IMG/VR virus record: IMGVR_UViG_3300007351_000018
Length of the DNA: 47,425 nt
DNA from: a virus
Strand: one strand, 5' to 3'
In this document: in pieces, positions 20,190-43,049 of the stretch
How the letters are laid out: every line of letters begins with the position of its first letter
Position numbering within the stretch: position 1 is the first letter of the stretch
Made by a program: the position numbers and the translations under genes
The notes under the pieces: generated by a model
Seen by the model: only the letters and a program-made list of their open reading frames with translations
Told to the model about the DNA's origin: nothing
The model's database searches: none

Positions 20190-20792
20190 TTAACCAGACG
20201 ATTCGACGGCTGCTTCCGCGTGTATACCACCCGCAGCATTTTCAAAGCCCGGTATGGTCGAATCAACACTTGTTACCATCCATACTGATGTTGAAATACC
20301 CAGTAGGTTCAATGTCTGTGGCTGTGTCCCTAGTGTGGAGAATGATATATAGCGGTGGCTTGAACCACCAGTCGAATCCATTACTCCGCAATTAGTTGTT
20401 AAGTCAACCCACAGCGTATTAGCAGAGGCACCAGTAGAGCCCCAACGTATCACTTTTGGTACACCTGGAATAGGCGCACCCACTACAATAGTCCTTGCTG
20501 ACGTTGAGAAGTCACCGCCCGTTGTGTTAGGCACGCAATAGGTCAAACCATACGGCGTTACCGTTGAAGGGCTTGCACCAGCAGACGTTACCGCAACGGT
20601 TTCGACATACGCAATAGGTACACCTTGGTTATAGGTTAGTCCCGTAGAACTCGCCACCTGTACCGCAGTCGAACCGGAACGCGCATAGATACCATTGCCG
20701 TACAACGCACCCGTGGAGTCTAGTACAGTCAAGTCCGTACTGCCATTAGTCGTACCATTGATGTAAATGCCCTCACGTTGTTCTATTTTCAT
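20190..20792 (-). CDS. Ser/Thr/Gly-rich structural protein (about 200 aa) immediately after the major capsid gene
   Basis: ATG at 20792 after GAGGTG; ...NGTTNGSTDLTVLDSTGALYGNG...VTSAGASPSTVTPYG... Confidence 0.45.
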   Translation of the reverse strand: MKIEQREGIYINGTTNGSTDLTVLDSTGALYGNGIYARSGSTAVQVASSTGLTYNQGVPIAYVETVAVTSAGASPSTVTPYGLTYCVPNTTGGDFSTSARTIVVGAPIPGVPKVIRWGSTGASANTLWVDLTTNCGVMDSTGGSSHRYISFSTLGTQPQTLNLLGISTSVWMVTSVDSTIPGFENAAGGIHAEAAVESSG

Positions 20793-20860
20793 TTTTTTCA
20801 CCTCGATTCAAAGCATAATAAAAGGGCGATTATTTAACCGCCCTTATTTAGTTAGCTACA

Positions 20861-21763
20861 TCAAGCGCCCTGATTCCCCGCAAATCCGACGTTAGGAATC
20901 ATACAGGAATTGTGCATAGCGATTGCAGCCAATTTGAGATTCTTCGTGTCGAAGTCAATCTCATCAGTGAACTGCGTTTTCATCCACCATACGAATATCG
21001 CATGGACGAATGAGTTATCCCACATGAACCAAGCGTTGGTATCATTCAAACGATGTGAATAATGCCAATTTATCCTTGCTGATGGCAGGACGTTCTTTGT
21101 GTTTACAGTCAGCCCGGCTTTCTTGTCGGATTCGTAAACTTCCTCAATGTCGAACTGATTCAAGTAATGTGTCAAGCCATCAGTCGCTTTTGAGGGCATG
21201 GGCTTACCCTGATGATTTTTGAACTGTGCAAACATCTGTATCATGGATTTGTGGTTGTCAGGATCTGTCAAGGATGAAGCTGTTGCCAATGTGTCATTGG
21301 TTGTTCCAGGAGCATCTTTACAAGGAACACTGTTCGAGCATTTGGGTACGCCTGTTGCGAGGTTAGTCGTAAAGGCATTGTCAAAATGCGCTATCAATGT
21401 TTCCTCTTCCAAGTCCCTCATGGTTCTTGCAAGTTCCTTCGCCCTTGCGGGGTCAAGACACTTATTAAGGTCGAACTTCATAGCCTCCTGCGTGATAGAG
21501 AATCCGTTACCTCTTGTTACAGACTTAACGGAGGTCTGGTACGCCTCCCTGACCGAACCGTAAGTCAGAGGCATACCCTCTGTCTTTGTGTACGCGGCAG
21601 AAAGGTTACCCATCGTGTCAAATGTTTCCGTTTCTTTTACCCCTTCATACTCCGTGCTTATCATAGGGTATTCAAGGGGGTATGCTTCATAGTTATTGTA
21701 GAAGTAGTCTTTCTGTTGGTCGGCTACACTTCTAGCAATATCTGAGGTTACTGTATATGCCAT
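20861..21763 (-). CDS. Major capsid protein candidate (300 aa)
   Basis: Called from size and position after the scaffold-like gene; strong RBS (GGAAGGAGTGAAAG); followed by a GC hairpin (aaagggcg...cgccctt). No motif-level proof. Confidence 0.55.
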   Translation of the reverse strand: MAYTVTSDIARSVADQQKDYFYNNYEAYPLEYPMISTEYEGVKETETFDTMGNLSAAYTKTEGMPLTYGSVREAYQTSVKSVTRGNGFSITQEAMKFDLNKCLDPARAKELARTMRDLEEETLIAHFDNAFTTNLATGVPKCSNSVPCKDAPGTTNDTLATASSLTDPDNHKSMIQMFAQFKNHQGKPMPSKATDGLTHYLNQFDIEEVYESDKKAGLTVNTKNVLPSARINWHYSHRLNDTNAWFMWDNSFVHAIFVWWMKTQFTDEIDFDTKNLKLAAIAMHNSCMIPNVGFAGNQGA

Positions 21764-21782: not shown

Positions 21783-22352
21783 TTAGGTAGTCACAAGCCC
21801 TCTGAACAAGTTCGGGGCGAATGTACCACGCACTGTTTTATTGACCGTTGAGAAATCAGTCAAAATGAACGCACCAAGGGTAGAACCAGAAACACTTGCC
21901 GTTGAAGCAGTAATCCAATCCTGTACCCAAGTCGACCCTGCGGTTGAGGCATAAGTAGAACCAGATGAACATTCCTGTGCAACAAACTTGAACACCAGCC
22001 CAAGGTTTGTCGTTGTCACCCAGTCACTCGCCATCGCTCCTGCGCCATCAGACGATGCTGTGGTATAATTACCCTCACATACGTCATATGGAGTAAGAGG
22101 CTGTACATAAACTATCGCTGTTGAATCTGCTGTTGCATTTGCCGGCATAACAGCTACAATACCGGCAAGTCCACCACTCGTTGAACCCAAAGGCTCGGTT
22201 GAACCCGTGGAAGTGCCGATTGTCACCAATCTTGCACGACCAGACGATTCAAATACGAGTTTACCAACGTCAGTGGTGTATATGCTCGCTGTGCTGGACG
22301 CAATCATTTTCCTTACGGGATTTTCCTGCGCCCCATTAACGATTTTCCACAT
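21783..22352 (-). CDS. Ser/Thr-rich head decoration-like protein (about 189 aa)
   Basis: Lies between the scaffold and capsid genes; ATG at 22352 after AGGAG; ...TIGTSTGSTEPLGSTSGG..., ...SSGSTYASTAGST..., ...TASTASVSGST... Confidence 0.4.
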   Translation of the reverse strand: MWKIVNGAQENPVRKMIASSTASIYTTDVGKLVFESSGRARLVTIGTSTGSTEPLGSTSGGLAGIVAVMPANATADSTAIVYVQPLTPYDVCEGNYTTASSDGAGAMASDWVTTTNLGLVFKFVAQECSSGSTYASTAGSTWVQDWITASTASVSGSTLGAFILTDFSTVNKTVRGTFAPNLFRGLVTT

Positions 22353-22364
22353 AATTATCAACTC

Positions 22365-23572: not shown

Positions 23573-23932
23573 TTAATTCCCGTAATCAGGAACATAATTA
23601 TCAACCAACCTTCGTCTATGCCTTAATGCCTCTCTTGCTGTCATCCCCGTAGGGTCTATATCCAAATTACTTGCTAGATAAGCTGCATAAGTCACGGGAT
23701 TCTTTGTAATACTCCCGCACTTCTTACATACACATACCGGCTCTCCAAAATCTCCCTTGTGCCATAATCCCAACTGTTCACACCTTCCGCAAACAGGTTG
23801 CCTTGTCAAGGGGCAAGAGTTCTCCAACATTGTCATGGTTCTGATTTCCTCGTTACTCATAACATGATTGAAGTGTTTTGAGTTGCCGAATATGATAGCC
23901 ATTAGCTTGTTATGTTCTGCTACTGATGCCAT
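23573..23932 (-). CDS. Hypothetical Cys-rich (zinc-ribbon-like) protein
   Basis: ...PVCGRCEQLGLWHKGDFGEPVCVCKKCGS...; start overlaps the portal stop. Confidence 0.4.
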   Translation of the reverse strand: MASVAEHNKLMAIIFGNSKHFNHVMSNEEIRTMTMLENSCPLTRQPVCGRCEQLGLWHKGDFGEPVCVCKKCGSITKNPVTYAAYLASNLDIDPTGMTAREALRHRRRLVDNYVPDYGN

Positions 23933-25767
23933 CAGCCACCCACCATCCCCTGTTGCTGGATTAGCCCACCACTCGGATTGTTGGCATTAACCAACGGATT
24001 ACTAGGTGGCTGTGACTGTTGTGGTTGCTGTTGATACTGCTGTACCATCATTTTCAACTGTGCTTCTTGGTCATCGTTCAATGGAAGCCCCAGCCAATCT
24101 TTCATCAAGGCTCTCATTTCTGACCATTCCACCAATGGTTTCCCGCCTATCTGTACGGGTGCCAGTTGTGCCATCATCTGATACAAGAACGCCTTATTCT
24201 TTGGCAATCCAGCACCGATATTTATCTCAATATCCAGATCCACAGACTTAGTAAGCGGCTTCCCGTCTCGTCCCATGGCTGGCTCAAACTTAGGTTTCTT
24301 CGCACCAGGACGAGCTTTCGTGTACTGTTCTTCGTAAGCACTCGTAACAGGTTTCATTACAGGCACTTTTGTCATGTCGCGGAAGTCTATCCATTCATAA
24401 TCTTCTTTGTTCTCGTCCAGCCTGAACGCCTTGCCTGATGTGTAGTTATCCATCATCAGCCCCAATGCGTACTGGCACAACTCAACAAGTGTTTCCTGCA
24501 GTAAAATCTTTTGATGGTCAATGGCGTTATGTCCCTGCTGTTGCTGTATTGCTGATTCTGTTGCGGTCTGGTCACCCCTCTTGCCGGACATACCAAGCAT
24601 CAATGACGAAAACCTCGAAACGTGTTGTATTTCTTCCTCTATCTGTTTAAGCAACGCCCACCAATCCGGCTGTACTTGCATCCACGGTACGGATATAATC
24701 GGTGTACCGTTGCCGGAGGTTAAGTCTGCAGGTCGTGGGTTCAATGAGTTCTCGTCAAAGTCTGATAGGTCACTCTGGATAATGTCGGGGTCATAAAGAA
24801 CTATGTTAGGTCTTGAAGCTATACGGATCTTGTCGTACAGTTCATTTAAAAGTTTCTGTAATGGAAGCAACAACTTACCATTACCGAACCCTTGTAACCT
24901 TCCCTCTACTGGGTACATTATCGTATAGAAATACGGGTACTTGTCGTTTACATAGTTGTAATAAGACTTGATTTCTTCCTCTGACTTTTTCTGATTGTCC
25001 TTACGTCCACCCTTTTTGTGACAGTCATACAATAGAACCCCGCAAGCCGAATACTCTCTTAACCTCAACTTACCATCCTGACGTGACCAGTACAGAATCA
25101 ATACGGATGAGTTTTCATCATCCACGTTCTGCAATTCGGTGAATATCCCACCGTCACGAAAATCCACATACTTCCCGTACTCGACCATTTCAGCCTTTTC
25201 CTCGCCGTACCTGTCAATGAACTGCTGTTTACTCATCGTAATGGTTTCAGCGATGTATTCCGCTTCCTGGAACCTTAAAGGATCTTTTATCTTAATATCA
25301 ACGTATAACTTATTAAGAGGTGTCGGATTAATGGTGACAAGTCCGAAACCATTTATCGCTTTAGGGTCAAAGGAAAGTCCGAACACGCCATTACCAAACA
25401 ACTCCCTGCGTCTTTCGTGTATAGTCAGCTTGGTTTTGATATTGTTCTTACGCAACGTCCAGTCAAGCCCTATCTGCGCCCAATTCGCAAATCCCCTGTC
25501 AGACGGCCCCTGCCCTTTACAAGTTATCGCAAGGTTCTGTTCAACCAATGCCGTAACCTGACCTTCTATGTTGGCATGGAATCTGTTTATTTTGGAGTTG
25601 GGTACATTCTTGACCTCTGGCTGTTCATTGGAATAATATTCCACAATCTCATCCCAGTCATCAAAGATATCCTGAACCATATAACGGTTAGAATTAAGTT
25701 GCGATATGACATTATCGGCTTCTTTGATTTCATCCTCTGTCATAAATTTCGATCTATCTCTTTTCAT
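23932..25767 (-). CDS. Portal protein candidate (611 aa)
   Basis: Called from size and position ahead of the scaffold and capsid genes; Gln-rich C-terminal tail; GGAG RBS. Confidence 0.6.
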   Translation of the reverse strand: MKRDRSKFMTEDEIKEADNVISQLNSNRYMVQDIFDDWDEIVEYYSNEQPEVKNVPNSKINRFHANIEGQVTALVEQNLAITCKGQGPSDRGFANWAQIGLDWTLRKNNIKTKLTIHERRRELFGNGVFGLSFDPKAINGFGLVTINPTPLNKLYVDIKIKDPLRFQEAEYIAETITMSKQQFIDRYGEEKAEMVEYGKYVDFRDGGIFTELQNVDDENSSVLILYWSRQDGKLRLREYSACGVLLYDCHKKGGRKDNQKKSEEEIKSYYNYVNDKYPYFYTIMYPVEGRLQGFGNGKLLLPLQKLLNELYDKIRIASRPNIVLYDPDIIQSDLSDFDENSLNPRPADLTSGNGTPIISVPWMQVQPDWWALLKQIEEEIQHVSRFSSLMLGMSGKRGDQTATESAIQQQQGHNAIDHQKILLQETLVELCQYALGLMMDNYTSGKAFRLDENKEDYEWIDFRDMTKVPVMKPVTSAYEEQYTKARPGAKKPKFEPAMGRDGKPLTKSVDLDIEINIGAGLPKNKAFLYQMMAQLAPVQIGGKPLVEWSEMRALMKDWLGLPLNDDQEAQLKMMVQQYQQQPQQSQPPSNPLVNANNPSGGLIQQQGMVGG

Positions 25768-25786: not shown

Positions 25787-25833
25787 AAAAAAAGACCGTC
25801 CTATTGTTTGTGAAATCAAACAATAAAACGGTC
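25787..25833 (-). terminator. Strong rho-independent terminator between the sugar operon and the portal gene
   Basis: Minus strand: GACCGTTTTATTGTTTG-atttca-CAAACAATAGGACGGTC followed by TTTTTTT. The stem is 17 positions with two mismatches. Confidence 0.75.
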
Positions 25834-25856
25834 TCTAATGGACTCTCTACTCTGCT

Positions 25857-26027: not shown

Positions 26028-26209
26028 CTTTTAACCCTTGATTCAGGCGGGGTCATGGACTTGTTCAACATACCAGTCTGCGGGTCACGGTAAAGGGATT
26101 TCTTATCATCCTTCTTCTCTACGATTACCACCTTACCCAACCTCTCCAGTAACAAGAAAACACAAAAGCATAATGCTATTGTAGAAAAAATTAAACTAAC
26201 TATAACCAT
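26024..26209 (-). CDS. Small single-pass membrane protein
   Basis: MVIVSLIFSTIALCFCVFLLL... then a charged tail; overlaps the neuA-like stop. Confidence 0.45.
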   Translation of the reverse strand: MVIVSLIFSTIALCFCVFLLLERLGKVVIVEKKDDKKSLYRDPQTGMLNKSMTPPESRVKR

Positions 26210-26831
26210 GTAGCCCTCCGTTTTTCAATATACTTCCCGCTATGAAAACGTCATCCATGTCATCAACATCAACACTCCTGTATGATGGCATCACATATTC
26301 GATTACGTTATCGCTCCATAGCTTACCTTTGTTGAGTAAATCCCTGCGTGTTATGAATATCGCACCATTCCTCTGAAAGTGTGCTTTGTCTGTTGCTTTG
26401 TTGAATCTTTTGTCCTTAGTTTTCAATCTCAGTAAATATCCCGAATACAAACTATCGGACTCTATCAACTGGTTATCATTAAAACATTCAATAGCCCCGT
26501 CAATGTCGTTCACTGTCCGTAACGGGCTTGTGGGCTGTAATAACATTATCGCATCCACACACTTGTCAAACATGAGTTCATATTGCTCTATCGCATACGG
26601 CAACCATGTGAATATATCTTCCTTCTTACCCTTACTCATTTTGGAAGGGCGTATGATACCGTATGTTTTATATTCAGTGTACTTATCAGTGAAAACGAAC
26701 CAGTCATCAAGCATACTTTTTTCTGCTGCTTGTATTGTGTACTCTATCATCGGCTTACCACATAAAGGATATATGTTCTTGTCCTTTATGCCCTTTGAAC
26801 CTCCACGGGCTGGTATAATACCAAGTATCAT
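26196..26831 (-). CDS. neuA: N-acylneuraminate (nonulosonate) cytidylyltransferase, CMP-NulO synthetase
   Basis: ILGIIPARGGSKGIKDKNI, LLQPTSPLRT, QRNGAIFIT, VDVDDMDDVFIA: all hallmark CTP_transf_3 motifs. Confidence 0.85.
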   Translation of the reverse strand: MILGIIPARGGSKGIKDKNIYPLCGKPMIEYTIQAAEKSMLDDWFVFTDKYTEYKTYGIIRPSKMSKGKKEDIFTWLPYAIEQYELMFDKCVDAIMLLQPTSPLRTVNDIDGAIECFNDNQLIESDSLYSGYLLRLKTKDKRFNKATDKAHFQRNGAIFITRRDLLNKGKLWSDNVIEYVMPSYRSVDVDDMDDVFIAGSILKNGGLHGYS

Positions 26832-27934
26832 AATTCCTCCAATATCTTGATAATTTTCTCTCCTGCCGTACCATCTCCAAACGTATAATCTCTCGCGTGT
26901 TTCTTGCCTATCATCTTTTCCGCATAATCAAATATCTCGCCTGATGAATAACCCACCCTTACAGTATTAAAACCGTGTTCTCGTTTATCCTGTCGTGTGC
27001 CTATGCATACATAAGGAACTCCAAGATATGAACCTTCTCTTATACCTGAACTGGAATTACCTATGAACAACGAACAGTTATTTATCAGCTTATAAAACTT
27101 CAACGGCGGTAAATTCTTCACGAACCTTATCTTGTCACACAACCCCAGTTCACGCATCTTCCTGATATAACCTGAAATCTCGTCATTCCCCGCGTCTATG
27201 TTAGGCCAAAACCATACTGTCTGGATATCCAACTTATTCACCGCAGTCAATATCTCATTGGCTTGGAACTCACCTTCTCCGTATTCTCTTGTGTTGGGAT
27301 GAAACATCACAACAATATACGGCTTTGTCAAGTCGATTTCAGCACCCACACCACCATACAAATGGGAATCGTTTATATCTTCGGGCTTGTGTGTCAGGTC
27401 TACCCCTGCAATCAAATCTATGGACGGGCATCCGACATTATATACCTTGTCTTTACCCATGGCCCTTATCCTGTCGGCACTCTTTTCTGTTGCGGGGAAA
27501 TGTATGTCGGCAAGTTGTGTGATAGCGTTTCTTACCTTATCATCAATACTTCCCGTTTCCTCCCCGCCCTGCGTATGTACAAGGGGAATATTCATGTAAG
27601 AGGCTGCTGTCGCCACCGCCATCTGTTCATACCTATCGGCGTGTGCAATCACTATATCAGGCTTTAATCGTTCCAAAGCATTACATATCTCTATCAGGAA
27701 AAATCCCGTTGACAGCCCCATTATGTGGGGAGTGTCACCCTCTACCTTGTAATGGATTTTCTCATTGGGGATAAACCCCTCATTCTCCATTACCTCAACA
27801 GCCTCACCATACTTGTCCAATAACATTGAACCAGCAGCGATTATCTGCAAGGTATGTGACTCTTTTATCTTTTGAGCAACCGCTTTCATCCTGCCCCACG
27901 GCGCACGATTCGTAACCGCTAAAAGTATCTTCAC
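26828..27934 (-). CDS. neuC: UDP-N-acetylglucosamine 2-epimerase (hydrolysing), NeuC-type
   Basis: MKILLAVTNRAPWGRMK..., HADRYEQMAVATAA, VHTQGGEETGSIDDKVRNAITQLADIHF: parallels the NeuC/SiaA GDR-E...GGE-SG-DD-IR motifs. Confidence 0.8.
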   Translation of the reverse strand: MKILLAVTNRAPWGRMKAVAQKIKESHTLQIIAAGSMLLDKYGEAVEVMENEGFIPNEKIHYKVEGDTPHIMGLSTGFFLIEICNALERLKPDIVIAHADRYEQMAVATAASYMNIPLVHTQGGEETGSIDDKVRNAITQLADIHFPATEKSADRIRAMGKDKVYNVGCPSIDLIAGVDLTHKPEDINDSHLYGGVGAEIDLTKPYIVVMFHPNTREYGEGEFQANEILTAVNKLDIQTVWFWPNIDAGNDEISGYIRKMRELGLCDKIRFVKNLPPLKFYKLINNCSLFIGNSSSGIREGSYLGVPYVCIGTRQDKREHGFNTVRVGYSSGEIFDYAEKMIGKKHARDYTFGDGTAGEKIIKILEEL

Positions 27935-29040
27935 TGTGGCCCTCTTAAAATATGATTCAGTACATCACTATAAGCACCCGAAGCACCCTGCATTTGTGCT
28001 GTGTGTATGTCGCAATTCTTAATAGTTTCATCCAACTGTGTGAATGTAGGCACGAGTTTATTCAATTCCATATGCTTATGTTTTATCAACCGTTCCACTT
28101 CTTCACGCGATTGTGAGTTTAGAGCATCTGTCGCACCAGTGATATATCCTTCGGTGTTTCGCAGTTGTCTGTAAATCTCATCACGCTTAAACTCTGCCGT
28201 TGCCCTCTGTGTATGTAATGCACCACCCTTTGGCTTTAGATCGGTTATACGCTGTTTGACAAGCACGCAAGCCTTATTGTCGGATTCAAAACCGTACAGT
28301 AAGCCTCCAGGATTCGATAATAGGTCACATTCGGGAGGCTGGTAATACTTTATACCCATGCACTGTAAGAAGAACACCCACGATTCTACGGATGGCCTTT
28401 GGAAACTATACTCCGAGTCCGTTGCCATGTTAACGCCATAGATATGTACCTCTTTGAATCCTTCATACCATGCCAAAGCTATCATCCATGAAATCTGATT
28501 AGTAAAATACCTATAACCAAACGGTACTACTTCTTTCAGTTTGTTCAGAATATCGTCTTTGGGGTATGGTACAGTTCCTGGCATATCGTCATAGTGATCC
28601 CATGTATAAATGGGTATCTTAGCACTCTTTAACCATTTCTGATGTTCCGGCCTCTGTTTACTAGGTGAGTTCCGTATATCGTGTATCTCGAACCATCTAT
28701 CGGCTCTACCATTAGGTATTGATTGCAGATACTTGTAAAGTTCGTTTATGCCCCAAATCTCAAACGATGGGTCATTATATGGTGCTTTGTTCCATGAGTT
28801 AGCAAATCCCACTATTGCCACCTTATCGGTTTTGCGTGGCAGTTTAATATACTTTTTCGTGGGTAGTATTTCTTCCCATTCTTTCGGTAGCTTTTGTGCA
28901 AATCCCACCGCACGTTTCATCTGTTCTGTGTTCAAGGGTGATTCCCTTAATTGCTGTGGCGGTATTGCGGGGTCTGATATCTTAACCTTACCTTCCTGTA
29001 CTTCCTTAACAACAGCTTCAACATCTTTCTTTGTTGACAT
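27931..29040 (-). CDS. Orphan 369-aa protein; candidate nonulosonate (sialyl-type) transferase
   Basis: Sits between neuB and neuC with overlapping stops and starts. KVAIVGFANSWNK...FEIWGINELY and FTNQISWMIALAWYEGFKEVHIYGVNMA recall the nucleotide-sugar fold pattern of CstII-type (GT42) and Maf/DUF115 transferases, from memory rather than alignment. Coiled-coil C-terminus. Confidence 0.35.
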   Translation of the reverse strand: MSTKKDVEAVVKEVQEGKVKISDPAIPPQQLRESPLNTEQMKRAVGFAQKLPKEWEEILPTKKYIKLPRKTDKVAIVGFANSWNKAPYNDPSFEIWGINELYKYLQSIPNGRADRWFEIHDIRNSPSKQRPEHQKWLKSAKIPIYTWDHYDDMPGTVPYPKDDILNKLKEVVPFGYRYFTNQISWMIALAWYEGFKEVHIYGVNMATDSEYSFQRPSVESWVFFLQCMGIKYYQPPECDLLSNPGGLLYGFESDNKACVLVKQRITDLKPKGGALHTQRATAEFKRDEIYRQLRNTEGYITGATDALNSQSREEVERLIKHKHMELNKLVPTFTQLDETIKNCDIHTAQMQGASGAYSDVLNHILRGPQ

Positions 29041-29383
29041 TACCTACCTCCATCTTTTTTTGTATGATTTGCTCATAAGAGTGTAAATCACAATGTATAT
29101 GTGCGTTTTCTATAAAGAGTTGAACGATTTTATTAGAACCTTTTTGAAGTTTTGCCTTAACAATAAAATTAACAATCTCAAATTCTTTCTCATCAATTTT
29201 ATTAGCCTTATCAAACCCCAATATCAACATATCACGGTCTTTAACATAAGCACTTTCCACATAAATATAGGAATCAGGGTCAAATTCTTCCAACCTCAAT
29301 TCATGTTCTTTCCCTAAATGTTCCTTTAATTCTTTAATATCTTTAAATTCCTTCTTACACCTATGACAAATCACCCCATCCAC
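29018..29383 (-). CDS. Hypothetical protein with an N-terminal C2H2-like zinc finger
   Basis: CHRCKKEFKDIKELKEHLGKEH. Confidence 0.4.
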   Translation of the reverse strand: MDGVICHRCKKEFKDIKELKEHLGKEHELRLEEFDPDSYIYVESAYVKDRDMLILGFDKANKIDEKEFEIVNFIVKAKLQKGSNKIVQLFIENAHIHCDLHSYEQIIQKKMEVGNVNKERC

Positions 29384-30102
29384 CTCATCTTATAAATTTG
29401 ACATTTATCTAAATAATTTCGATAATCAACAAGTTCCTTAAATTCGTCTGGTGTGCTACTGAATAAGTGGTCTTTGCCAGGAAGATACTTCCCAAGCGTG
29501 TAATGTCTTTCCAACCACTCCACACCTTGTTTTATGGCCTTTTTCGCACACTCAATGTCAGGTGTGTGGTCTGAAAACCCGCCAAGTAGCGTCATCTTAT
29601 CAAAGTCAACTTCGCTTTTGGGCGCAGGATAACGTGATATACAGTATAAAAGTGATACATTAGGGTATTGGCTTAACTTATATATGTTTTTATCGTCCGT
29701 CATACCTGTACTGATTATCACATGGTTAAAATATTGGATGCAAAAATCCACCAACCTATCATTATCAGCGTCAGGAGAGGCAATTTTAACTGTATCGCAC
29801 CCCAACACGCCAATAACCAGTGCCAATTCCTTTGAAAATATCGTAAAAAGAGGTTTAACCCCACTTTCCTTGCACTTTTCCACGATAAAGGAGTAATCAT
29901 CATTCTGTAATTCAACTTTTTTGTAGTAATCATAAGATTTTTCAAAGTCAGGCCAGTTTTTATTAAGATTATCAGCTTTAAATGCTTGGAATTTTATGTA
30001 ATCAATCCCTATTTTACCAGCTTGGATTATCATTTCTTCCATGAATTGCCTATTGCCTAGATGGTTGCAACAGGCATCGGCTATGATTTTTGTCATATTC
30101 AC
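29371..30102 (-). CDS. neuB: N-acetylneuraminate (nonulosonate) synthase, NeuB catalytic TIM-barrel domain only
   Basis: IIADACCNHLGN...IDYIKFQAF, VKIASPDADN, IISTGMT, YCISRYPAP, GFSDHTPD, WLERHYTL: NeuB family landmarks. At 243 aa there is no C-terminal SAF/antifreeze-like domain. Confidence 0.75.
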   Translation of the reverse strand: MNMTKIIADACCNHLGNRQFMEEMIIQAGKIGIDYIKFQAFKADNLNKNWPDFEKSYDYYKKVELQNDDYSFIVEKCKESGVKPLFTIFSKELALVIGVLGCDTVKIASPDADNDRLVDFCIQYFNHVIISTGMTDDKNIYKLSQYPNVSLLYCISRYPAPKSEVDFDKMTLLGGFSDHTPDIECAKKAIKQGVEWLERHYTLGKYLPGKDHLFSSTPDEFKELVDYRNYLDKCQIYKMRWMG

Positions 30103-30103
30103 C

Positions 30104-31015
30104 TCACAAATTTATTAATGGGGATTTCAGTCCATCAAATCGGTATTTTATGTCGTAGTTTGCCATTGCTGTATCGTCCCACGCGCTTAAAAATCTCTTG
30201 TATTTCTCAACATCGGGCTTTATGAACTGTGGTGTCTGCGGTTCACACTTTTTAAAGAAACAATATAGCTTCTCACCCATGCTCTCAAAGTAAGTATAGG
30301 TTGCGTGTTCCCTGAATCCGCACTTTAACATTAGTTGGACAAGTGTTAATTGTGAAAAAGCGAACAAATGAGCGCAGGACATGAAAGCATCTACCGCCAA
30401 CCAATGCACACAAGTTAATACATTGGGTACGGATATCAACAAAAGTCCGTCATCTGTCAATATATTTCTTGCTTTTTGTATCACGCTTATGGGATCATAC
30501 AAATGTTCAAGAGTATTTTGCAGACTTATCAGGTCATACTTGGATGCAGGATTAAATTCCTCTATTGTCGTATTGGCTACATCTAAATTATTCTCTCTTG
30601 CTATCTCGTAGGTTTTCTTATTAGGTTCTATACCAAAAGCGTCATACTCTTTGCAACCCTCCAGAAATGTCCCTACCGCACATCCGATATCAAGCACTTT
30701 CGCACCACGTTTCACGCCAACGTCTTTCATACATTCCAAAGCGTGCCTTGCGTGCAGATGTATGCTTGCATTAAAACTCGTAGCCTTGCCGTATATGTTC
30801 CTGTAATCGTTCTCGTAAAAGTCTATGAGTTCCTGTCTATCCATTCTATTAACAACATATATGAGACCACAACCACGGCAAATAACATTAGTGCCGTTAA
30901 GAATGTTACCAAGGTTATCACGGATAACCACACTCCTTAATATCCCCTTCTTCTCTCGTTCTATCTTATCCCATATGACTTCATAATCAGTGGACCCGCA
31001 GAGAATACAACTCAT
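30104..31015 (-). CDS. Class I SAM-dependent methyltransferase with an N-terminal zinc ribbon
   Basis: CILCGS...CRGCG; SAM motif I KVLDIGCAVGTFLE; ...LISLQNTLEHLYDP...GLLLISVPN. Confidence 0.75.
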   Translation of the reverse strand: MSCILCGSTDYEVIWDKIEREKKGILRSVVIRDNLGNILNGTNVICRGCGLIYVVNRMDRQELIDFYENDYRNIYGKATSFNASIHLHARHALECMKDVGVKRGAKVLDIGCAVGTFLEGCKEYDAFGIEPNKKTYEIARENNLDVANTTIEEFNPASKYDLISLQNTLEHLYDPISVIQKARNILTDDGLLLISVPNVLTCVHWLAVDAFMSCAHLFAFSQLTLVQLMLKCGFREHATYTYFESMGEKLYCFFKKCEPQTPQFIKPDVEKYKRFLSAWDDTAMANYDIKYRFDGLKSPLINL

Positions 31016-31356
31016 ACGGTTTCCCTCTCCACTTTGATATTTTTTGTATTATAATAATTTATAACTCGAAATACGTCCCCGCTTTTCATCGTAACAATAA
31101 TATCATTACCTGAAACTTCCGCATTTTCAACCTTGTCATTTTCTTTATACCTTATTGCGTTTACCATTTCGGGGTGTGGTTTCAACGCCAAGACGTTCCC
31201 ATTAAAATATATTTCATTGCCTCTTATACCGATGTTCTGGTCAGTGTACCTTATTGGATTTTCTAGATCGTATACTTTCCTTTCTAATTTTTCTACTCTT
31301 CCTCTTAATTCAAAAAACTCCTTTGTTAATACCGCTAATTCATATTTGCTAGACAT
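31012..31356 (-). CDS. Hypothetical protein (114 aa)
   Basis: ORF with an ATGA overlap to the methyltransferase gene. Confidence 0.4.
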   Translation of the reverse strand: MSSKYELAVLTKEFFELRGRVEKLERKVYDLENPIRYTDQNIGIRGNEIYFNGNVLALKPHPEMVNAIRYKENDKVENAEVSGNDIIVTMKSGDVFRVINYYNTKNIKVERETV

Positions 31357-32189
31357 AATCCCTCCAAATACTTTCTCATTTGTTCTGCAATATAAATATC
31401 AGTCAACCTTCTAGCGTCCTTCGAGTTCCCCCCGACATGGGGTGTCTGGATAGCACCAGGTATTTCCACATCATTAAGGAAATCGTCTGCATAGTAGATG
31501 TACTCGTTTTCAATGAATGGTATCAACTCGTCAACCTTTATAACGCCCTGCCGTGAAGTGTTCACCAACAATGCGCCAGGTTTCATCAGTTCAAAATCTG
31601 CCTTACCAAACATCCCTTCATTACCCTTCAAGGGAATGTTTATCGTTATAACGTCTGAATTGCCTAAGATGTATTCGTAGTAGTCATGGTAAAACATACC
31701 GTAACTTTTCTCTTGTTTCCTGTCTATGTCGTAGATTGTCATACCGAAAGCATCCGCATACTTGCCTATCATCTTACCCAGTCTGCCATAACCTATAATG
31801 CCTATCATCTTGTCTTTTAACTGTAACCGTGCTTTTTTCGCCAACTGCAATATCAGCGACCATGTATGCTCTGCGGTAGAGGTTATCTTCTTGCCCTCTG
31901 TTGCTTTCCACTCATCGTCAAGGTGAATGACCTTCGGTGCTTTGATGTGTTCAACTGAAGTACAGGGGCAAAAAACTGGTAGATTAGTTTTAATCGGTGT
32001 CAATTGTGTATAGACTGCGGAATAAACATTTTCATTAAGTCCGTAGAATTGAAGATACTCAAACTCTGCAATATCCTCAATAACTTTCTGTGCATCCTGA
32101 TGAATCTTGTCCAACATCAGAATCTTCGTTTTCCTCACACCCTTCCAATAAACTTTCAGCAGGATAAACCGATATAAAAACCCTTGCAA
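31335..32189 (-). CDS. D-isomer-specific 2-hydroxyacid dehydrogenase family, NAD-binding
   Basis: IGIIGYGRLGKMIGKYADAFGMTIYDID (GxGxxG then acidic residue), LLVNTSRQGVI, TPHVGG. The probable start is the ATG at 32117 (MLDKIHQD...). Confidence 0.7.
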   Translation of the reverse strand: MQGFLYRFILLKVYWKGVRKTKILMLDKIHQDAQKVIEDIAEFEYLQFYGLNENVYSAVYTQLTPIKTNLPVFCPCTSVEHIKAPKVIHLDDEWKATEGKKITSTAEHTWSLILQLAKKARLQLKDKMIGIIGYGRLGKMIGKYADAFGMTIYDIDRKQEKSYGMFYHDYYEYILGNSDVITINIPLKGNEGMFGKADFELMKPGALLVNTSRQGVIKVDELIPFIENEYIYYADDFLNDVEIPGAIQTPHVGGNSKDARRLTDIYIAEQMRKYLEGLCLANMN

Positions 32190-32719: not shown

Positions 32720-34249
32720 CTATTGGCACTTCCCTATCACCCTTACTCCGCTTTTCTCCAAGCGGTCGATTTCGTGTTCCTTATAACCTTTCAGTTTCAA
32801 CTCCGTATACAACCACTCACCCTTTAATGGTGCTGATGGTTCCGCACTCCTGCGTGGACGATGTACACAAAAACACCGTAAGCTATCAGGTAAGTGTGTT
32901 ATGTTATGAGGCTCTTTTGCAACATCATCAGGATCCTTGTCGGACTTCTGGATATTGTTCATACACTTCCACAACTTAGGGCAACTGCCCTTGTCAAAAG
33001 TCAGGTAAGCCGTTTTGTACTTATCGCCGGTCTGCTCATCCCTTAACTCAACAGGCAACAACCATTCTCGGACATTCATCCAACCCTTTACCCTGTCATT
33101 GGAGGTCTTGGTCAGCCTAATGCCATGCTCGATGAAAATATCTGCTGCACTCTTGCCCGTATCGTTCCTGCGATTCCATAAATCCGGCGGGGCATAATAA
33201 TGATGTATGTTTTCTTTCGTCAGCTTCGCAATAATCTTCGCCGCTTCCGATATGATCAAATTGGATTGTTCAAACTCTCTATAGACCCTTGCGAACCCCT
33301 GTTCATCAACGTAAATCCACAACACTGCCGTGGAATCTAAGCCGTAGTCTATGGTGACATACTTGCGATACCATTCGGGTATGGAACCAATACTGTCCTT
33401 CAAATGTACTTCTTCCTTCATCTGGAACGCGAACCCGCACAACGAACTAAACCGTCCGTACTGTCGTGCTTCACGTTCCTCTGGTGTCATGGTGGCAACG
33501 AGTTTATTTATCTCTTCCAGCGACAGCCAGGGGTTATCTTCCCATTCTACCAGCCAATACTTCACATCAGAGTCATTGTTCTCATTCAGATAGACCACGT
33601 TGTAAACAAACGTCAAACCTTTAAGCGGGGTCATGGTGAACCATATATCACCCCGTGTGTCCATGATCCTCATTTTACACTCGTCAAAGACTTCCTGTGT
33701 GGGTTCCTCGTCAAACCATATCCAACCCTGTGAGGTTCCCTGAAAACTCTCACGACCCTGCTCTACCGTCTTAAAGCCTATCGTCTGACCGTTCTTTAAA
33801 ATTATCTTATCTATGATGGCGTTTATCGGGTCATCCTTCTTGCCGTGTCTTACTATGATGTTCTTGATCTGTTCCTTCGGCAACCACCTTAAAATTTCTC
33901 GCTGTGCTACATCACGCTGGACTTCGTTAGTCAAACTCACTACCCAGCCGGATGAAGGTTTCAGCTCCCTGTACTTACTCCAGCCCATAGTATGACATAC
34001 GGCCTCTACCGCGCCCGCTACCGTCTTACCTACCCTGTTACCGCCGAATATGGCTTTTAATCTATGGGAATCAGTATGGAACTCAACTTGTTTCTTGTGT
34101 ATGCCCTTCCCCTTAAGCTGGCAGTAATCCTCATTATTGTAAAGAAGAAGCCTATTGTGTTGGGATTCCTTCTCAAATTCCTCTATGGCTTTATTGATTA
34201 ACTCGGCTGTTCTATCTTGCCAATATTTTAACTCTGCTTGTTTATCCAT
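32720..34249 (-). CDS. terL: Terminase large subunit
   Basis: Walker A-like FGGNRVGKTVAG, Walker B GWIWFDEE, C-terminal nuclease-type acidic motifs (VTIDYGLD...); 509 aa. Confidence 0.8.
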   Translation of the reverse strand: MDKQAELKYWQDRTAELINKAIEEFEKESQHNRLLLYNNEDYCQLKGKGIHKKQVEFHTDSHRLKAIFGGNRVGKTVAGAVEAVCHTMGWSKYRELKPSSGWVVSLTNEVQRDVAQREILRWLPKEQIKNIIVRHGKKDDPINAIIDKIILKNGQTIGFKTVEQGRESFQGTSQGWIWFDEEPTQEVFDECKMRIMDTRGDIWFTMTPLKGLTFVYNVVYLNENNDSDVKYWLVEWEDNPWLSLEEINKLVATMTPEEREARQYGRFSSLCGFAFQMKEEVHLKDSIGSIPEWYRKYVTIDYGLDSTAVLWIYVDEQGFARVYREFEQSNLIISEAAKIIAKLTKENIHHYYAPPDLWNRRNDTGKSAADIFIEHGIRLTKTSNDRVKGWMNVREWLLPVELRDEQTGDKYKTAYLTFDKGSCPKLWKCMNNIQKSDKDPDDVAKEPHNITHLPDSLRCFCVHRPRRSAEPSAPLKGEWLYTELKLKGYKEHEIDRLEKSGVRVIGKCQ

Positions 34250-36144: not shown

Positions 36145-36690
36145 ATGATAATAGGCTATGCTAGAGTATCCACAGATGAACAATGTCTTGATCGCCAGAT
36201 TGACGCGCTCACCAAATACGGCATAGATACGCTATACACCGAAAAAATGACAGGTACTCGCGCCAATAGACCGGAACTCGACAAGATTAAATTGCAAGCC
36301 CGTAAAGGTGACACGGTTGTCATCGAAAGTCTTAGCCGTCTAGGTCGTAGCACAAAAGACTTACTAACACTAATCAGCACATTTGACGAAAAAGGCATAA
36401 AACTTGTATCGCTCAAGGAGAGTATCAGCACGGACACAGCCGCAGGAAAACTGATAACAAGTATATTGTCTGCCCTGTGTGAGTTCGAGCGTGATACCAT
36501 CGTTCAGCGTACAAAGGAGGGTATGGCCGCCGCCAAATCAAGGGGGAGAAACGGAGGGCGGCCACGGAAAAACAGTAAAAGCATCGAAAAGGCAACACAG
36601 CTATATAATGCTGGTAAATCTATATCTGAAATAAAATCATTTACAGGTGTTAGTGCTACTACACTTTACCGCTACTTAAAGGAGGGTTGA
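36145..36690 (+). CDS. Small serine recombinase (resolvase/invertase family)
   Basis: MIIGYARVSTDEQ (catalytic Ser), VIESLSRLGRSTKDLL, C-terminal HTH ...AGKSISEIKSFTGVSATTLYRYL. Confidence 0.85.
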   Translation: MIIGYARVSTDEQCLDRQIDALTKYGIDTLYTEKMTGTRANRPELDKIKLQARKGDTVVIESLSRLGRSTKDLLTLISTFDEKGIKLVSLKESISTDTAAGKLITSILSALCEFERDTIVQRTKEGMAAAKSRGRNGGRPRKNSKSIEKATQLYNAGKSISEIKSFTGVSATTLYRYLKEG

Positions 36691-42206: not shown

Positions 42207-43049
42207 TCAGACCTCCGTATCTAAAGATTCTTGTCCATCTATGGCTTTATCGTCATATGCAGATTTAAGCCACCAGTTCCAGTAATCATCTACTGTTTTA
42301 AATGATTGCTTGCGTCCTGTTTTCTCCCTGTGTTTTATATGTCGTTCTAATGCTCTCTTGTAAGCATCGGAAAATTTAGGATACCTTAATAATTCCCTCG
42401 CCATATTTGCCGATAAAGGACAACCTATACAGCCTAAACGAGTAAACCCCTCATCATATAAGCAACAATGCTTTATTCCCCCATTGTTAAGGTAATCCCA
42501 TACATCCTCGTCCGACCAATCAATAATCGGATTAACAACTCTTTTTCCTTTTCGCACACAGTTCTCGAATCCCAACCTGCCATCGTCATTATCGTTGAAT
42601 AATATTGAATTTCCTTTACCGTGTCGAACCACTTCAAATGTATTTCTGCTGTTTTTTCTTCTTGCGCTTTCCGCCCACCTAACTCCAGTAACACATATCC
42701 GTCCCTGTCCGCCATGCTCTTTTAGTTCGGAACAACAAAACCGTGCCATTCGTGTCGGCAATCCCCTTTTCTCTATAAGCCTCCATATAGTAGTTTGAGG
42801 ACGGTCAATAATCACATCAGGATAGTTTTCTCGCATAAAGTAAATCAACTCTGGCGGATCAACAGTGGTAAGATTATAATGTGCATCAAATTTAACTCCT
42901 GCTTCTTTGGCAAGGTGGTATATACATTGACTGTCTTTGCCACCACTAAAGGCAAGGTAATACCCCTCTGGTGGCTCAAATGCTTGAAGCCGGTCTATCG
43001 CTATTTTAACCTTGTCCCTCTCACCAAAGAGCGTATTTTCGATTAACAC
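42207..43049 (-). CDS. Phosphoadenosine-phosphosulfate (PAPS) reductase family PP-loop protein
   Basis: PP-loop YLAFSGGKDSQCI; ...RFCCSELKE...; C-terminal Cys cluster CCLYDEGFTRLGCIGCP; GTG start. Confidence 0.75.
   Translation of the reverse strand: MLIENTLFGERDKVKIAIDRLQAFEPPEGYYLAFSGGKDSQCIYHLAKEAGVKFDAHYNLTTVDPPELIYFMRENYPDVIIDRPQTTIWRLIEKRGLPTRMARFCCSELKEHGGQGRICVTGVRWAESARRKNSRNTFEVVRHGKGNSILFNDNDDGRLGFENCVRKGKRVVNPIIDWSDEDVWDYLNNGGIKHCCLYDEGFTRLGCIGCPLSANMARELLRYPKFSDAYKRALERHIKHREKTGRKQSFKTVDDYWNWWLKSAYDDKAIDGQESLDTEV

What the first reader, a model, noticed from the sequence alone, without database searches (positions are those of the whole stretch)
27931..29040. Orphan 369-aa protein between neuB and neuC is the best candidate for a new nonulosonate transferase
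A CMP-sugar pathway needs a transferase, and no recognisable GT-A or GT-B glycosyltransferase is present in the operon. This ORF overlaps neuC by 4 nt and is overlapped by the upstream ORF by 23 nt. Its core, KVAIVGFANSWNK...FEIWGINELY...FTNQISWMIALAWYEGFKEVHIYGVNMATD, has the same order of elements I recall from CstII-type (GT42) sialyltransferases (I-I-A-G-N-G-P-S ... C-N ... T-S-G-x-x-M-x-x-x-A-x-x-L-G-Y-K-E-I-Y-L-x-G-I-D) and from Maf/DUF115 flagellin NulO transferases. The resemblance is by eye and from memory only. The C-terminal ~100 aa look like a coiled coil that could dock onto a structural protein.
Basis: inference. Interest (0 to 1): 0.62.

Follow-up and report, generated by a model that had tools for sequence, protein, structure and literature searches.

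The report
Phage sialyltransferase-like enzyme for virion glycosylation
An unannotated phage gene inside a sialic-acid-type sugar pathway is predicted to fold like bacterial sialyltransferases and always travels with that pathway and a serine/threonine-rich head protein, so the phage probably sugar-coats its own particle, which I did not find reported in the literature searched.

Summary
The ORF is real: 27931-29040 on the minus strand, 369 aa, strong RBS, 4-nt overlap with neuC. Single-sequence searches find nothing. A family profile hits only CstII/CstI (GT42) sialyltransferases in the PDB (E 1e-4; hhalign 88%). The AlphaFold core (pLDDT 91) has GT42 enzymes as its 16 best Foldseek matches (TM about 0.55). 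It does not reach the Pfam cut-offs for CST-I or Maf/DUF115, so it is a new family with that fold, with about 4,000 clusters at 50% identity, almost all from phages.

Context supports a nonulosonate transferase. The gene lies either inside the neuB/neuC/neuA cassette or directly after the capsid gene and a Ser/Thr-rich protein (the p203 family). Among portal relatives, 19 of 19 cassette-bearing loci have it and 6 of 6 cassette-less loci lack it and p203. The same trio recurs in an unrelated Mu-like siphovirus. Inteins split the invariant EY..Q motif, whose Tyr aligns with CstII Tyr162. The complete phage genome has no other recognisable glycosyltransferase.

This scan has noted similar capsid-linked sialyltransferase-like enzymes on other phage DNA before. 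Those notes are unchecked.

The parts
27931..29040 (-). Target gene: 369-aa predicted CMP-nonulosonate transferase, a new family with a GT42/CstII-like fold
   Evidence: ORF and RBS. Family profile against PDB finds CstII. hhalign 88%. Foldseek hits are GT42.
28276..28833 (-). Catalytic alpha/beta core, residues ~70-255
   Evidence: Core model pLDDT 91.1, pTM 0.88. Foldseek ranks 1-16 are GT42 enzymes, TM 0.46-0.57. Invariant polar residues N99, E118, H120, H133, E210 and Q214, plus nearly invariant E100, K128, N181 and Y211 and mostly conserved D204 and R215.
28795..28815 (-). Gly-rich nucleotide-binding loop I76-V-G-F-A-N-S82; family consensus IVGFAPS, aligned to CstII IIAGNGPS
   Evidence: HMM and hhalign alignments. 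I76, G78, F79 and A80 are invariant in 54 sequences.
28399..28413 (-). Invariant E210-Y211...Q214 motif. Y211 aligns with CstII Tyr162. This is the intein insertion site in relatives.
   Evidence: hhalign, conservation table, intein alignment A3.
27943..28275 (-). C-terminal antiparallel coiled-coil hairpin, residues 256-366. Its length varies across the family, and short forms have a single helix of about 45 aa.
   Evidence: AF2 secondary structure, coiled-coil Foldseek hits, alignment A1.
26828..27934 (-). NeuC-type hydrolysing UDP-GlcNAc 2-epimerase, directly downstream with a 4-nt overlap
   Evidence: PF02350 1e-61; TIGR03568 330 bits against a cut-off of 236.
26196..26831 (-). NeuA-type CMP-nonulosonate synthetase, which makes the predicted donor
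   Evidence: PF02348 7e-15; a weak TIGR03584 PseF match.
29371..30102 (-). NeuB-family nonulosonate synthase, 243 aa, without the C-terminal SAF domain
   Evidence: PF03102 3e-41; TIGR03569 matched at positions 2-249 of 329 only.
30104..31015 (-). SAM-dependent methyltransferase of the cassette, probably for sugar tailoring
   Evidence: PF13489 5e-18. Recurs in related cassettes.
31335..32189 (-). D-2-hydroxyacid dehydrogenase-family protein, the conserved first gene of the cassette after terL
   Evidence: PF02826 2e-23. Present in 23 loci of the first set and in all cassette loci.
20190..20801 (-). p203: Ser/Thr-rich (26%) protein encoded after the capsid gene; the best-supported candidate acceptor
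   Evidence: Immediate upstream neighbour of the target in the after-capsid arrangement. Absent together with the target and cassette in 6 of 6 cassette-less relatives. The family recurs beside the target in an unrelated Mu-like phage. No Pfam, PHROG or PDB relative.
21783..22361 (-). p192: Ser/Thr-rich (27%) protein between the scaffold and capsid genes; second candidate acceptor
   Evidence: S+T is 0.23-0.27 in cassette-bearing phages against 0.14-0.15 for the protein at the same position in cassette-less relatives.
20861..21763 (-). Major capsid protein
   Evidence: PF25209 Phage_capsid_4, 27.2 bits against a cut-off of 27.

Best explanation
The gene encodes a cytoplasmic glycosyltransferase with the modified GT-A fold of GT42 sialyltransferases (CstII/CstI), a fold also related to the DUF115 domain of Maf. 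The phage's own NeuC, NeuB and NeuA make a CMP-activated nonulosonic acid late in infection. This sugar is Neu5Ac-type and is probably further tailored by the conserved methyltransferase and 2-hydroxyacid dehydrogenase. The enzyme binds the CMP-sugar through its N-terminal IVGFAxS loop, N99 and the E210-Y211 motif. It then transfers the sugar onto Ser/Thr hydroxyls of a head-associated protein, most likely the p203 family encoded after the capsid gene and possibly p192, so that the virion carries an acidic sugar coat. Shown here: the ORF, the predicted fold and distant homology, the conserved motifs, the co-occurrence patterns, and the lack of any other recognisable GT family in the genome. 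Inferred: donor identity, transferase activity, the acceptor, and any role of the coiled coil in oligomerisation or docking.
For: Fold and homology: a profile of 54 relatives hits only GT42 sialyltransferases credibly in the PDB (2drj, 1ro8, 1ro7; E 1e-4), aligned on both the Gly loop and the helix-strand motif. hhalign against CstII, whose sequence was verified identical to 1ro7_A, gives 88% and E 3e-6 over CstII residues 2-164. The full model (pLDDT 86) has CstI as its top hit. The core model (pLDDT 91) has GT42 at ranks 1-16 with probability 1.00. Weak Pfam hits in 21 and 14 of 54 members go to MptE-like/DUF115 and CST-I on the same motif.

Enzyme-like conservation: a dense set of invariant polar residues. 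Inteins in four relatives split the invariant EY|S..Q motif.

Context: the target is adjacent to NeuB and NeuC in 22 non-redundant loci. In others the cassette lies 5-10 kb away. Eight of 10 records with no nearby NulO gene carry NeuB elsewhere, including 4 of 4 records at least 90% complete. Among portal relatives, 19 of 19 cassette-bearing loci have the target and 6 of 6 cassette-less loci lack it. Four of 4 further contexts from other sources agree, including a Mu-like siphovirus with a different NulO gene set. NeuB is very rare in deposited phages: 3 of 50,697 records. The gene moved between the cassette and the position after the Ser/Thr-rich protein at least 3 times.

Acceptor: in 46 of 61 non-cassette loci the upstream gene has S+T of at least 22%, against 14% of all genes. 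p203 is co-absent in cassette-less relatives. The p203 HMM hits the 38%-S/T protein beside the target in the Mu-like phage at E 2e-13, with 0 of 300 shuffled decoys hitting.

No other GT family was found in a complete genome. Precedent: Maf enzymes, whose DUF115 domain is structurally related to CstII, O-link Neu5Ac directly to Ser/Thr (10.1101/2020.06.03.131540).
Against: There is no biochemical or expression evidence. Sequence similarity to GT42 is remote: 12-18% identity, TM about 0.55, rmsd 6-9 A. It covers only the donor-binding half, and the alignment stops before the catalytic His188 of CstII. Tyr156 and Arg129 are not conserved. Maf (5mu5) was not among the 50 best Foldseek hits. The window's copy is divergent: it has a long branch and carries N204, N81 and V218 where most relatives have D, P and C. 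The cassette-less portal relatives are probably one clade, so the 19/6 table reflects few independent events. One complete phage with a distant relative, Microcystis phage Mvi-Yong1342-1, has no NeuB. Ser/Thr richness is common in phage fibre and decoration proteins in any case.
Confidence: 0.65

Rival explanations
1. It is a nonulosonate transferase, but the acceptor is not a virion protein. It sialylates a host envelope glycan (LOS, teichoic acid, capsule or S-layer glycan) during infection or lysogeny, for example for superinfection exclusion, as viral neuABC genes are usually interpreted.
For: The nearest structural relatives, CstII and CstI, act on lipooligosaccharide glycans. The literature reads viral neuA/B/C genes as host-surface modifiers (10.1101/655167). 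The phage looks temperate, with resolvase, antirepressor and ParM-like genes.
Against: The gene lies on the same strand inside the terminase-to-portal block, or directly after the capsid gene, in every lineage examined. It repeatedly relocates next to a Ser/Thr-rich head-module protein. That protein family is gained and lost with it. No flippase, polymerase or other glycan-assembly genes were seen in the cassette.
Confidence: 0.15
2. It is a nucleotide-dependent enzyme of the same fold class but not a glycosyltransferase. It could be an MptE-like or thiamin-pyrophosphokinase-like kinase, or an enzyme that tailors the sugar or its precursor within the pathway.
For: Twenty-one of 54 members weakly hit Pfam MptE-like, a family that includes a pterin diphosphokinase. 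SteA and thiamin pyrophosphokinases appear as weaker Foldseek hits. The CstII catalytic His could not be aligned.
Against: GT42 enzymes outrank all kinases by orders of magnitude in E-value and occupy ranks 1-16. The MptE-like hits score 12-15 bits against a cut-off of 34.6 and cover only the shared helix-strand motif. NeuC, NeuB and NeuA already form a complete route to a CMP-sugar, and without this gene the complete genome would have a donor but no recognisable transferase. In many phages the gene sits away from the pathway, next to a head protein.
Confidence: 0.1
3. It is a non-catalytic assembly factor, such as a chaperone or scaffold for the Ser/Thr-rich head protein, that keeps an old transferase fold.
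For: It has a long coiled coil, as many assembly chaperones do. The window's copy carries substitutions at three near-invariant positions.
Against: About 20 invariant or near-invariant polar residues are kept across some 4,000 clusters. Inteins sit in the most conserved motif. Co-occurrence is with the sugar pathway, not only with the head protein.
Confidence: 0.05

Closest known systems
Campylobacter jejuni CstII / CstI sialyltransferases (CAZy GT42; Pfam PF06002; PDB 1ro7, 1ro8, 2p2v, 2p56)
   Same: They are the best hits by profile-sequence, profile-profile and structure comparison. Shared features are the N-terminal Gly-rich nucleotide loop, Asn31 (N99 here), the helix-strand motif ...MxAxAxxxGYKEIxxxG(I/V)D, and Tyr162 (Y211 here). 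Both are encoded beside neuB/neuC/neuA genes.
   Different: Identity is 12-18%, and no member reaches the Pfam cut-off. Tyr156 and Arg129 are not conserved, and His188 and the lid region cannot be aligned. The family has its own invariant set (W116-F-E-x-H120, H133, E210, Q214). It is phage-specific, often carries a C-terminal coiled coil, and its predicted acceptor is a protein rather than a lipooligosaccharide.
Maf (motility accessory factor) flagellin nonulosonic-acid O-glycosyltransferases (Pfam PF01973 MptE-like/DUF115; PDB 5mu5)
   Same: The closest functional analogy. Maf has a modified GT-A domain structurally related to CstII, flanked by helical regions. It is encoded next to NulO biosynthesis genes and its cognate Ser/Thr-rich structural acceptor, and it transfers Pse, Leg or Neu5Ac directly onto Ser/Thr (10.1101/2020.06.03.131540). 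Twenty-one of 54 family members weakly hit PF01973.
   Different: Scores are 12-15 bits against a cut-off of 34.6 and cover about 25 residues only. Maf was not among the top 50 structural hits. Maf proteins are much larger and bacterial, and their acceptor is flagellin. Here the candidate acceptor is a head-module protein of a phage.
Virion glycosylation in mycobacteriophages (phage-encoded glycosyltransferases proposed to modify capsid proteins)
   Same: A phage encodes its own transferase, apparently to glycosylate its own structural proteins. One genome announcement infers capsid glycosylation from two putative glycosyltransferases (PMC11256854).
   Different: From my own knowledge, those systems use ordinary GT-A/GT-B enzymes and host nucleotide-hexoses. 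Here the phage also carries a complete CMP-nonulosonate pathway and a GT42-like enzyme. I found no paper reporting nonulosonic acids on a tailed-phage virion.

Membership tests
GT42 / Pfam PF06002 (CST-I) | Sequence match to the family model above the curated cut-off (25 bits) | tested here: not met
   The window protein has no hit. Fourteen of 54 relatives hit weakly, with best E 1.5e-4 and 14-16 bits over about 33 residues.
GT42 / Pfam PF06002 (CST-I) | CstII-type modified GT-A (single Rossmann-like) fold | tested here: met
   For the core model, Foldseek ranks 1-16 are all GT42 structures, with probability 1.00, E 2.5e-5 to 2.7e-3 and TM 0.46-0.57. The full model has CstI as its top hit. 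This rests on a predicted, not a solved, structure.
GT42 / Pfam PF06002 (CST-I) | N-terminal nucleotide-binding loop (CstII 6-IAGNGPS-12) and Asn31 | tested here: met
   These align to I76-VGFA(P/N)S-82 and invariant N99. The loop is a variant (GFAPS rather than GNGPS).
GT42 / Pfam PF06002 (CST-I) | Active-site tyrosines Tyr156 and Tyr162 (roles per 10.1101/2023.08.01.551455) | tested here: inconclusive
   Tyr162 aligns with Y211 (Y in 49 of 54, next to invariant E210). Tyr156 aligns with A206 (A in 52 of 54).
GT42 / Pfam PF06002 (CST-I) | Catalytic base His188 (role from my own knowledge of the CstII literature; not confirmed in a paper read here) | tested here: inconclusive
   hhalign ends at CstII residue 164. 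By position only, invariant Q214 heads the following helix. The invariant histidines H120 and H133 lie elsewhere in the sequence.
GT42 / Pfam PF06002 (CST-I) | Uses a CMP-nonulosonate donor | not testable with these tools
   Only indirect support: a NeuA-type CMP-sugar synthetase is encoded in essentially every phage that has the gene.
Maf / Pfam PF01973 (MptE-like, DUF115) | Sequence match above the curated cut-off (34.6 bits) | tested here: not met
   Twenty-one of 54 relatives hit weakly, at 12-15 bits, on profile positions ~143-169 only. The window protein has no hit.
Maf / Pfam PF01973 (MptE-like, DUF115) | Encoded beside NulO biosynthesis genes and a cognate Ser/Thr-rich structural acceptor | tested here: met
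   Cassette adjacency or presence in the same genome. A Ser/Thr-rich upstream neighbour in 46 of 61 loci. The acceptor is a head-module protein, not flagellin.
Maf / Pfam PF01973 (MptE-like, DUF115) | Catalytic acidic residues equivalent to M. magneticum Maf E324 and D415 | not tested
   No Maf sequence or structure was aligned here, and Maf was absent from the top 50 Foldseek hits. The family does have invariant acidic residues (E118, E210), plus nearly invariant E100 and mostly conserved D204.
MptE-type 6-hydroxymethylpterin diphosphokinase | Folate/pterin pathway context and a kinase-type match | tested here: not met
   No folate genes were found in the window. Pyrophosphokinases appear only at Foldseek E > 0.05, well behind GT42.

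The most novel reading that the evidence does not exclude
This is one member of a very large, unnamed, essentially phage-specific family (about 4,000 clusters at 50% identity) of sialyltransferase-fold enzymes. Together with a phage-encoded CMP-nonulosonate pathway and a dedicated Ser/Thr-rich head protein, it forms a mobile three-part module with which diverse tailed phages, both podoviruses and siphoviruses, O-glycosylate their own capsids with sialic-acid-like sugars. That is a virion modification I did not find described for tailed phages. Some phages carry two paralogues, which might attach and then extend the sugar.
Probability: 0.5. Interest if true: 0.85.

Novelty: new variant of a known kind. 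Interest (0 to 1): 0.74.

Why it matters
If confirmed, this adds a new and abundant sialyltransferase family to the few known bacterial ones, of interest for glyco-engineering, particularly for direct protein O-sialylation. It also changes how phage neuA/B/C genes are read. They would not be auxiliary genes that remodel the host surface but part of a self-contained system that coats the phage particle with an acidic sugar. Such a coat could affect particle stability, adhesion to mucus or biofilms, immune recognition, or recognition by host defences and receptors. The three-part module (pathway, enzyme, acceptor) is small enough to test directly by co-expression in a laboratory strain.

Tried and rejected
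- Single-sequence searches of the target against Pfam, PHROGs, NCBIfam and the PDB gave nothing meaningful. Only profiles and structure reached GT42.
- Foldseek with the full-length model was swamped by coiled-coil matches such as dynein, LSD1-CoREST, SMC and Rad50, so the core was remodelled on its own.
- BFVD returned only uncharacterised phage proteins.
- Profiles of p203 and p192 have no PDB, Pfam or PHROG relatives, so their fold and their place in the virion remain unknown.
- Model coordinates are not exposed in the sandbox, so the catalytic pocket could not be superposed on CstII or Maf.
- The GT52 six-frame search was uninformative because its control found nothing anywhere.
- Five literature searches found no paper on a phage NulO transferase or NulO-bearing tailed-phage virions.
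- A DNA-glycosylation role was considered and dropped. No recognisable hypermodification enzymes turned up apart from a PAPS-reductase-like protein, and the gene consistently sits in the head module.
- Two further earlier-findings look-ups, by place (relatives) and with the sequence of relative P0007, found no look-alike stretches, so I cannot say whether the enzymes noted on other genomes belong to this family.
Full report
**Observation.** The window is a complete 47.4-kb phage genome, with direct terminal repeats and a CheckV estimate of 100%. On the minus strand, an ORF of 369 aa runs from ATG 29040 to TGA 27931. The plus-strand reading is full of stops. A GGAGGT Shine-Dalgarno lies 5 nt before the ATG, and the stop overlaps the GTG start of the next gene as GTGA.

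The gene sits in a same-strand block that runs terL (32720-34249), a SprT-like ORF, a 2-hydroxyacid dehydrogenase, a 114-aa ORF, a SAM methyltransferase, NeuB, a 121-aa zinc-finger ORF, the target, NeuC, NeuA, a 61-aa ORF, a terminator-like hairpin, and portal (23932-25767). Two details need adding: the gene is on the minus strand, and a small ORF separates it from neuB.

**What the protein is.** On its own the sequence matches nothing in Pfam, PHROGs, NCBIfam or the PDB. It does have many unnamed relatives: 286 in the word-indexed search. An exhaustive profile search found 3,999 representative clusters at 50% identity with E <= 1e-10.

An alignment of 54 relatives shows a core of about 190 residues with many invariant or nearly invariant polar positions. 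These include N99, E100, E118, H120, K128, H133, N181, D204, E210, Y211, Q214 and R215.

- A profile of that alignment searched against all PDB sequences returns seven CstII entries as its best hits (E 1e-4 to 1e-3), followed by CstI. Both the N-terminal loop (IVGFAPS against IIAGNGPS) and the motif NQISWMIALAI..GYKEI.YGVDMA...EY (against ITSGVYMCAVAIALGYKEIYLSGIDFYQNGSSY) align.
- I checked that my CstII sequence is identical to 1ro7_A. hhalign between the core alignment and CstII then gave 88% probability and E 3e-6 over 141 columns, covering CstII residues 2-164.
- AlphaFold2 models are confident: full length pLDDT 86, core alone pLDDT 91 and pTM 0.88.
- Foldseek of the full model against the PDB puts CstI first, at probability 1.00, but coiled-coil matches crowd the list.
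- For the core alone, ranks 1-16 are exclusively GT42 sialyltransferases: CstII, CstI and a Pasteurella multocida enzyme, each at probability 1.00 with TM 0.46-0.57. SteA and thiamin pyrophosphokinases follow far behind.

Three independent methods therefore agree on a CstII-like donor-binding fold.

**Membership.** The family is not a member of the existing models. PF06002 (CST-I) and PF01973 (MptE-like/DUF115, the Maf domain) are hit only weakly, at 12-16 bits against cut-offs of 25 and 34.6. Only 14 and 21 of the 54 relatives hit them, always on the same ~30-residue helix-strand motif. The window protein itself hits neither.

Of the CstII active-site residues, Asn31 and Tyr162 have conserved counterparts (N99, Y211). 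Tyr156 and Arg129 do not (A206; Q182 or a gap). The region of the catalytic His188 is not alignable. The family may instead use acidic residues or its own invariant histidines. Maf enzymes, which share the fold, depend on acidic residues. I therefore file it as a new family with the GT42/Maf-type fold.

**Support for the motif.** Four relatives (P0087, P0014, P0033, P0112) carry an intein of about 270-300 aa with a LAGLIDADG-like block. It is inserted at the same point in all four, SEY|C...SHN|S, between Y211 and S212. Many more representatives are split at the same profile position. Inteins typically sit in the most constrained functional motifs, which fits E210-Y211...Q214 being at the active site.

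**Context: is it tied to the nonulosonate pathway?** I fetched 80 IMG/VR loci through the family profile and annotated them with HMMs built from the window's proteins. Two arrangements dominate.

- (A) The gene lies between NeuB and NeuC inside the terL-to-portal cassette, as in the window (22 non-redundant loci).
- (B) The cassette stays between terL and portal, but the gene lies 5-10 kb away, directly after the capsid gene and a small Ser/Thr-rich protein of the p203 family.

For ten records where no NulO gene was visible within 10 kb, I searched the whole record for PF03102. Eight carry a NeuB gene elsewhere, including all four records that are at least 90% complete. The exceptions are a fragment that is 26% complete and Microcystis phage Mvi-Yong1342-1. 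NeuB itself is very rare in deposited phages: 3 of 50,697 records by tblastn with the window's NeuB.

**Test in the other direction.** I then sampled phages through the portal protein. Among informative loci, 19 of 19 with a NulO cassette have the target. In 6 of 6 more distant relatives, terL directly abuts the portal gene, and these lack the cassette, the target and p203 together. These six are probably one clade, so the number of independent events is small.

Independence comes from three other results:

- A maximum-likelihood tree of 92 family members needs at least 3 (by well-supported branches) and 7 (by parsimony) moves between the two positions. The position after the Ser/Thr-rich protein occupies the deep branches.
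- Contexts from other databases agree in 4 of 4 cases.
- One of these, L161, is a siphovirus with a Mu-type portal and MuF and an unrelated capsid. There the gene follows a full-length NeuB, NeuA, an acetyltransferase, a PseB-like dehydratase/epimerase and a methyltransferase.

In cellular genomes the family is very rare: 19 loci in about 186,000 species, all in MAGs and mostly on short contigs.

**The likely acceptor.** In the window, p192, p203 and p148, which flank the capsid gene, contain 25-27% Ser+Thr. The portal, scaffold and terminase proteins contain 9-10%. Across 61 non-redundant loci where the gene is not in the cassette, the nearest upstream same-strand gene has at least 22% S+T in 46 cases, against 14% of all genes in these loci. 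The nominal binomial p is 5e-27, but the loci are not independent.

In cassette-less relatives, the proteins at the p192 and p203 positions have only 13-19% S+T, and the p203 HMM finds nothing. In the unrelated Mu-like phage, the protein after the capsid gene is 38% S+T with tandem GTLTASSN repeats. Its C-terminal domain matches the p203 HMM at E 2e-13, whereas 0 of 300 composition-matched shuffles match and the capsid HMM does not hit.

So three components travel together across different head modules: the pathway, this enzyme and a p203-type protein. Neither p203 nor p192 has any Pfam, PHROG or PDB relative. Their position in the virion is unknown.

**Is there another transferase?** No cassette ORF, and none of 40 further ORFs scanned, hits a glycosyltransferase family. 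Six-frame searches of the genome for GT2, GT4-type and GT38 models are negative, with positive controls. The GT52 search had no working control. The phage thus makes a CMP-sugar, and this gene is its only transferase-like protein.

**Mechanism proposed.** Late in infection NeuC produces ManNAc from UDP-GlcNAc, NeuB condenses it with PEP, and NeuA activates the product with CTP. The conserved methyltransferase and 2-hydroxyacid dehydrogenase probably tailor the sugar. The target binds the CMP-sugar in its CstII-like pocket and transfers the sugar to Ser/Thr of p203, and possibly p192, before or during head assembly.

The variable N-terminal helices and the C-terminal coiled coil could mediate oligomerisation, since CstII is an oligomer, or acceptor docking. 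Nothing here tests that. Direct Ser/Thr O-linkage of Neu5Ac by fold-related Maf enzymes is the precedent.

**Rivals.** The alternatives are a host-envelope acceptor, the usual reading of viral neuABC genes; a non-transferase nucleotide enzyme; and a non-catalytic assembly factor. The head-module position, the co-variation with p203, the GT42-specific structural ranking and the conservation pattern all argue against them. None is excluded without biochemistry.

**Novelty.** Five literature searches found no description of this family or of nonulosonic acids on tailed-phage virions. The only deposited phage with a relative annotates it as 'type 11 methyltransferase'.

Within this scan, earlier follow-ups on other phage genomes reached similar conclusions about capsid-linked sialyltransferase-like enzymes. 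No sequence look-alikes were found, so I cannot say whether they are the same family. Those notes are unchecked AI readings and I do not count them as evidence.

**Verdict.** This is a new family-level variant of a known enzyme kind, with a new biological role proposed for it.

Noticed in passing
relatives P0087, P0014, P0033, P0112 (alignment A3); also over-long matches in L048, L051, L056, L074, L078, L079: Inteins of ~270-300 aa with a LAGLIDADG-like block are inserted at one identical site of the family (SEY|C...SHN|S, between Y211 and S212 in window numbering). Many more representatives are split at the same profile position.
   Followed up: partly
L003:2554-3342, L017:8109-8963, L027:7951-8802, L038:11797-12609, L048:13051-13848; tandem copies in L079 and L095: At least 12 related loci carry two paralogues of the family. 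One distinct clade of shorter second copies sits inside the cassette, so there may be two transferases per phage, for two acceptors or for attach-and-extend.
   Followed up: partly
window 29371-30102 (-): The NeuB homologue is only 243 aa and lacks the C-terminal SAF/antifreeze-like domain of canonical NeuB. It matches TIGR03569 positions 2-249 of 329. The same short form (232-269 aa) recurs throughout this phage lineage, whereas the Mu-like phage L161 has a 354-aa NeuB.
   Followed up: partly
window 31335-32189 (-) and 30104-31015 (-): A D-2-hydroxyacid dehydrogenase-family gene is the conserved first gene of the cassette in nearly all related phages, often with a SAM methyltransferase. This suggests a tailored sugar rather than plain Neu5Ac. 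One relative (L164) adds a UDP-glucose/GDP-mannose dehydrogenase.
   Followed up: no
window 25791-25836 (-) and 20822-20845 (-): Two terminator-like hairpins lie on the coding strand. One has a 20-bp stem with a T-run and sits between the end of the sugar cassette and the portal gene. The other sits directly after the capsid gene and before p203. The total number of terminator-like sites in the region was no higher than in shuffled sequence.
   Followed up: no
L084 (Microcystis phage Mvi-Yong1342-1, PP496355.1) 11914-12717: This is the only deposited phage with a relative (31% identity). It annotates the gene as 'type 11 methyltransferase', which looks like a misannotation. The complete genome has no NeuB, so this copy may use a host-made donor.
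   Followed up: partly
L163:9751-10053: In one relative, a 100-aa gene with an Acb2/Tad1-hairpin Pfam hit (an anti-CBASS/anti-Thoeris sponge family) sits between NeuB and the transferase-like gene.
   Followed up: no
L092 and L095 (complete Acidobacteriota MAG chromosomes): These are the only family members found in long cellular chromosomes. In L092 the gene is followed directly by a NeuA homologue, and L095 has two copies about 700 bp apart. They may be prophages that could lead to a cultivable system.
   Followed up: no
window 42207-43049 (-), 36145-36690 (+), 4028-4891 (+), 5137-6372 (+), 7964-9208 (-): Other genes of the phage: a PAPS-reductase-domain protein, a serine resolvase/invertase, a ParM-like actin, an FtsK/SpoIIIE-type ATPase, and an amidase_3 plus glucosaminidase endolysin. 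A PG_binding_1 tail protein lies at 13836-15680. The lysis genes suggest a Gram-positive host.
   Followed up: no
L161:14332-15489: An IS605 OrfB / Cas12f-like TnpB gene is inserted on the opposite strand within the tail module of the Mu-like relative.
   Followed up: no
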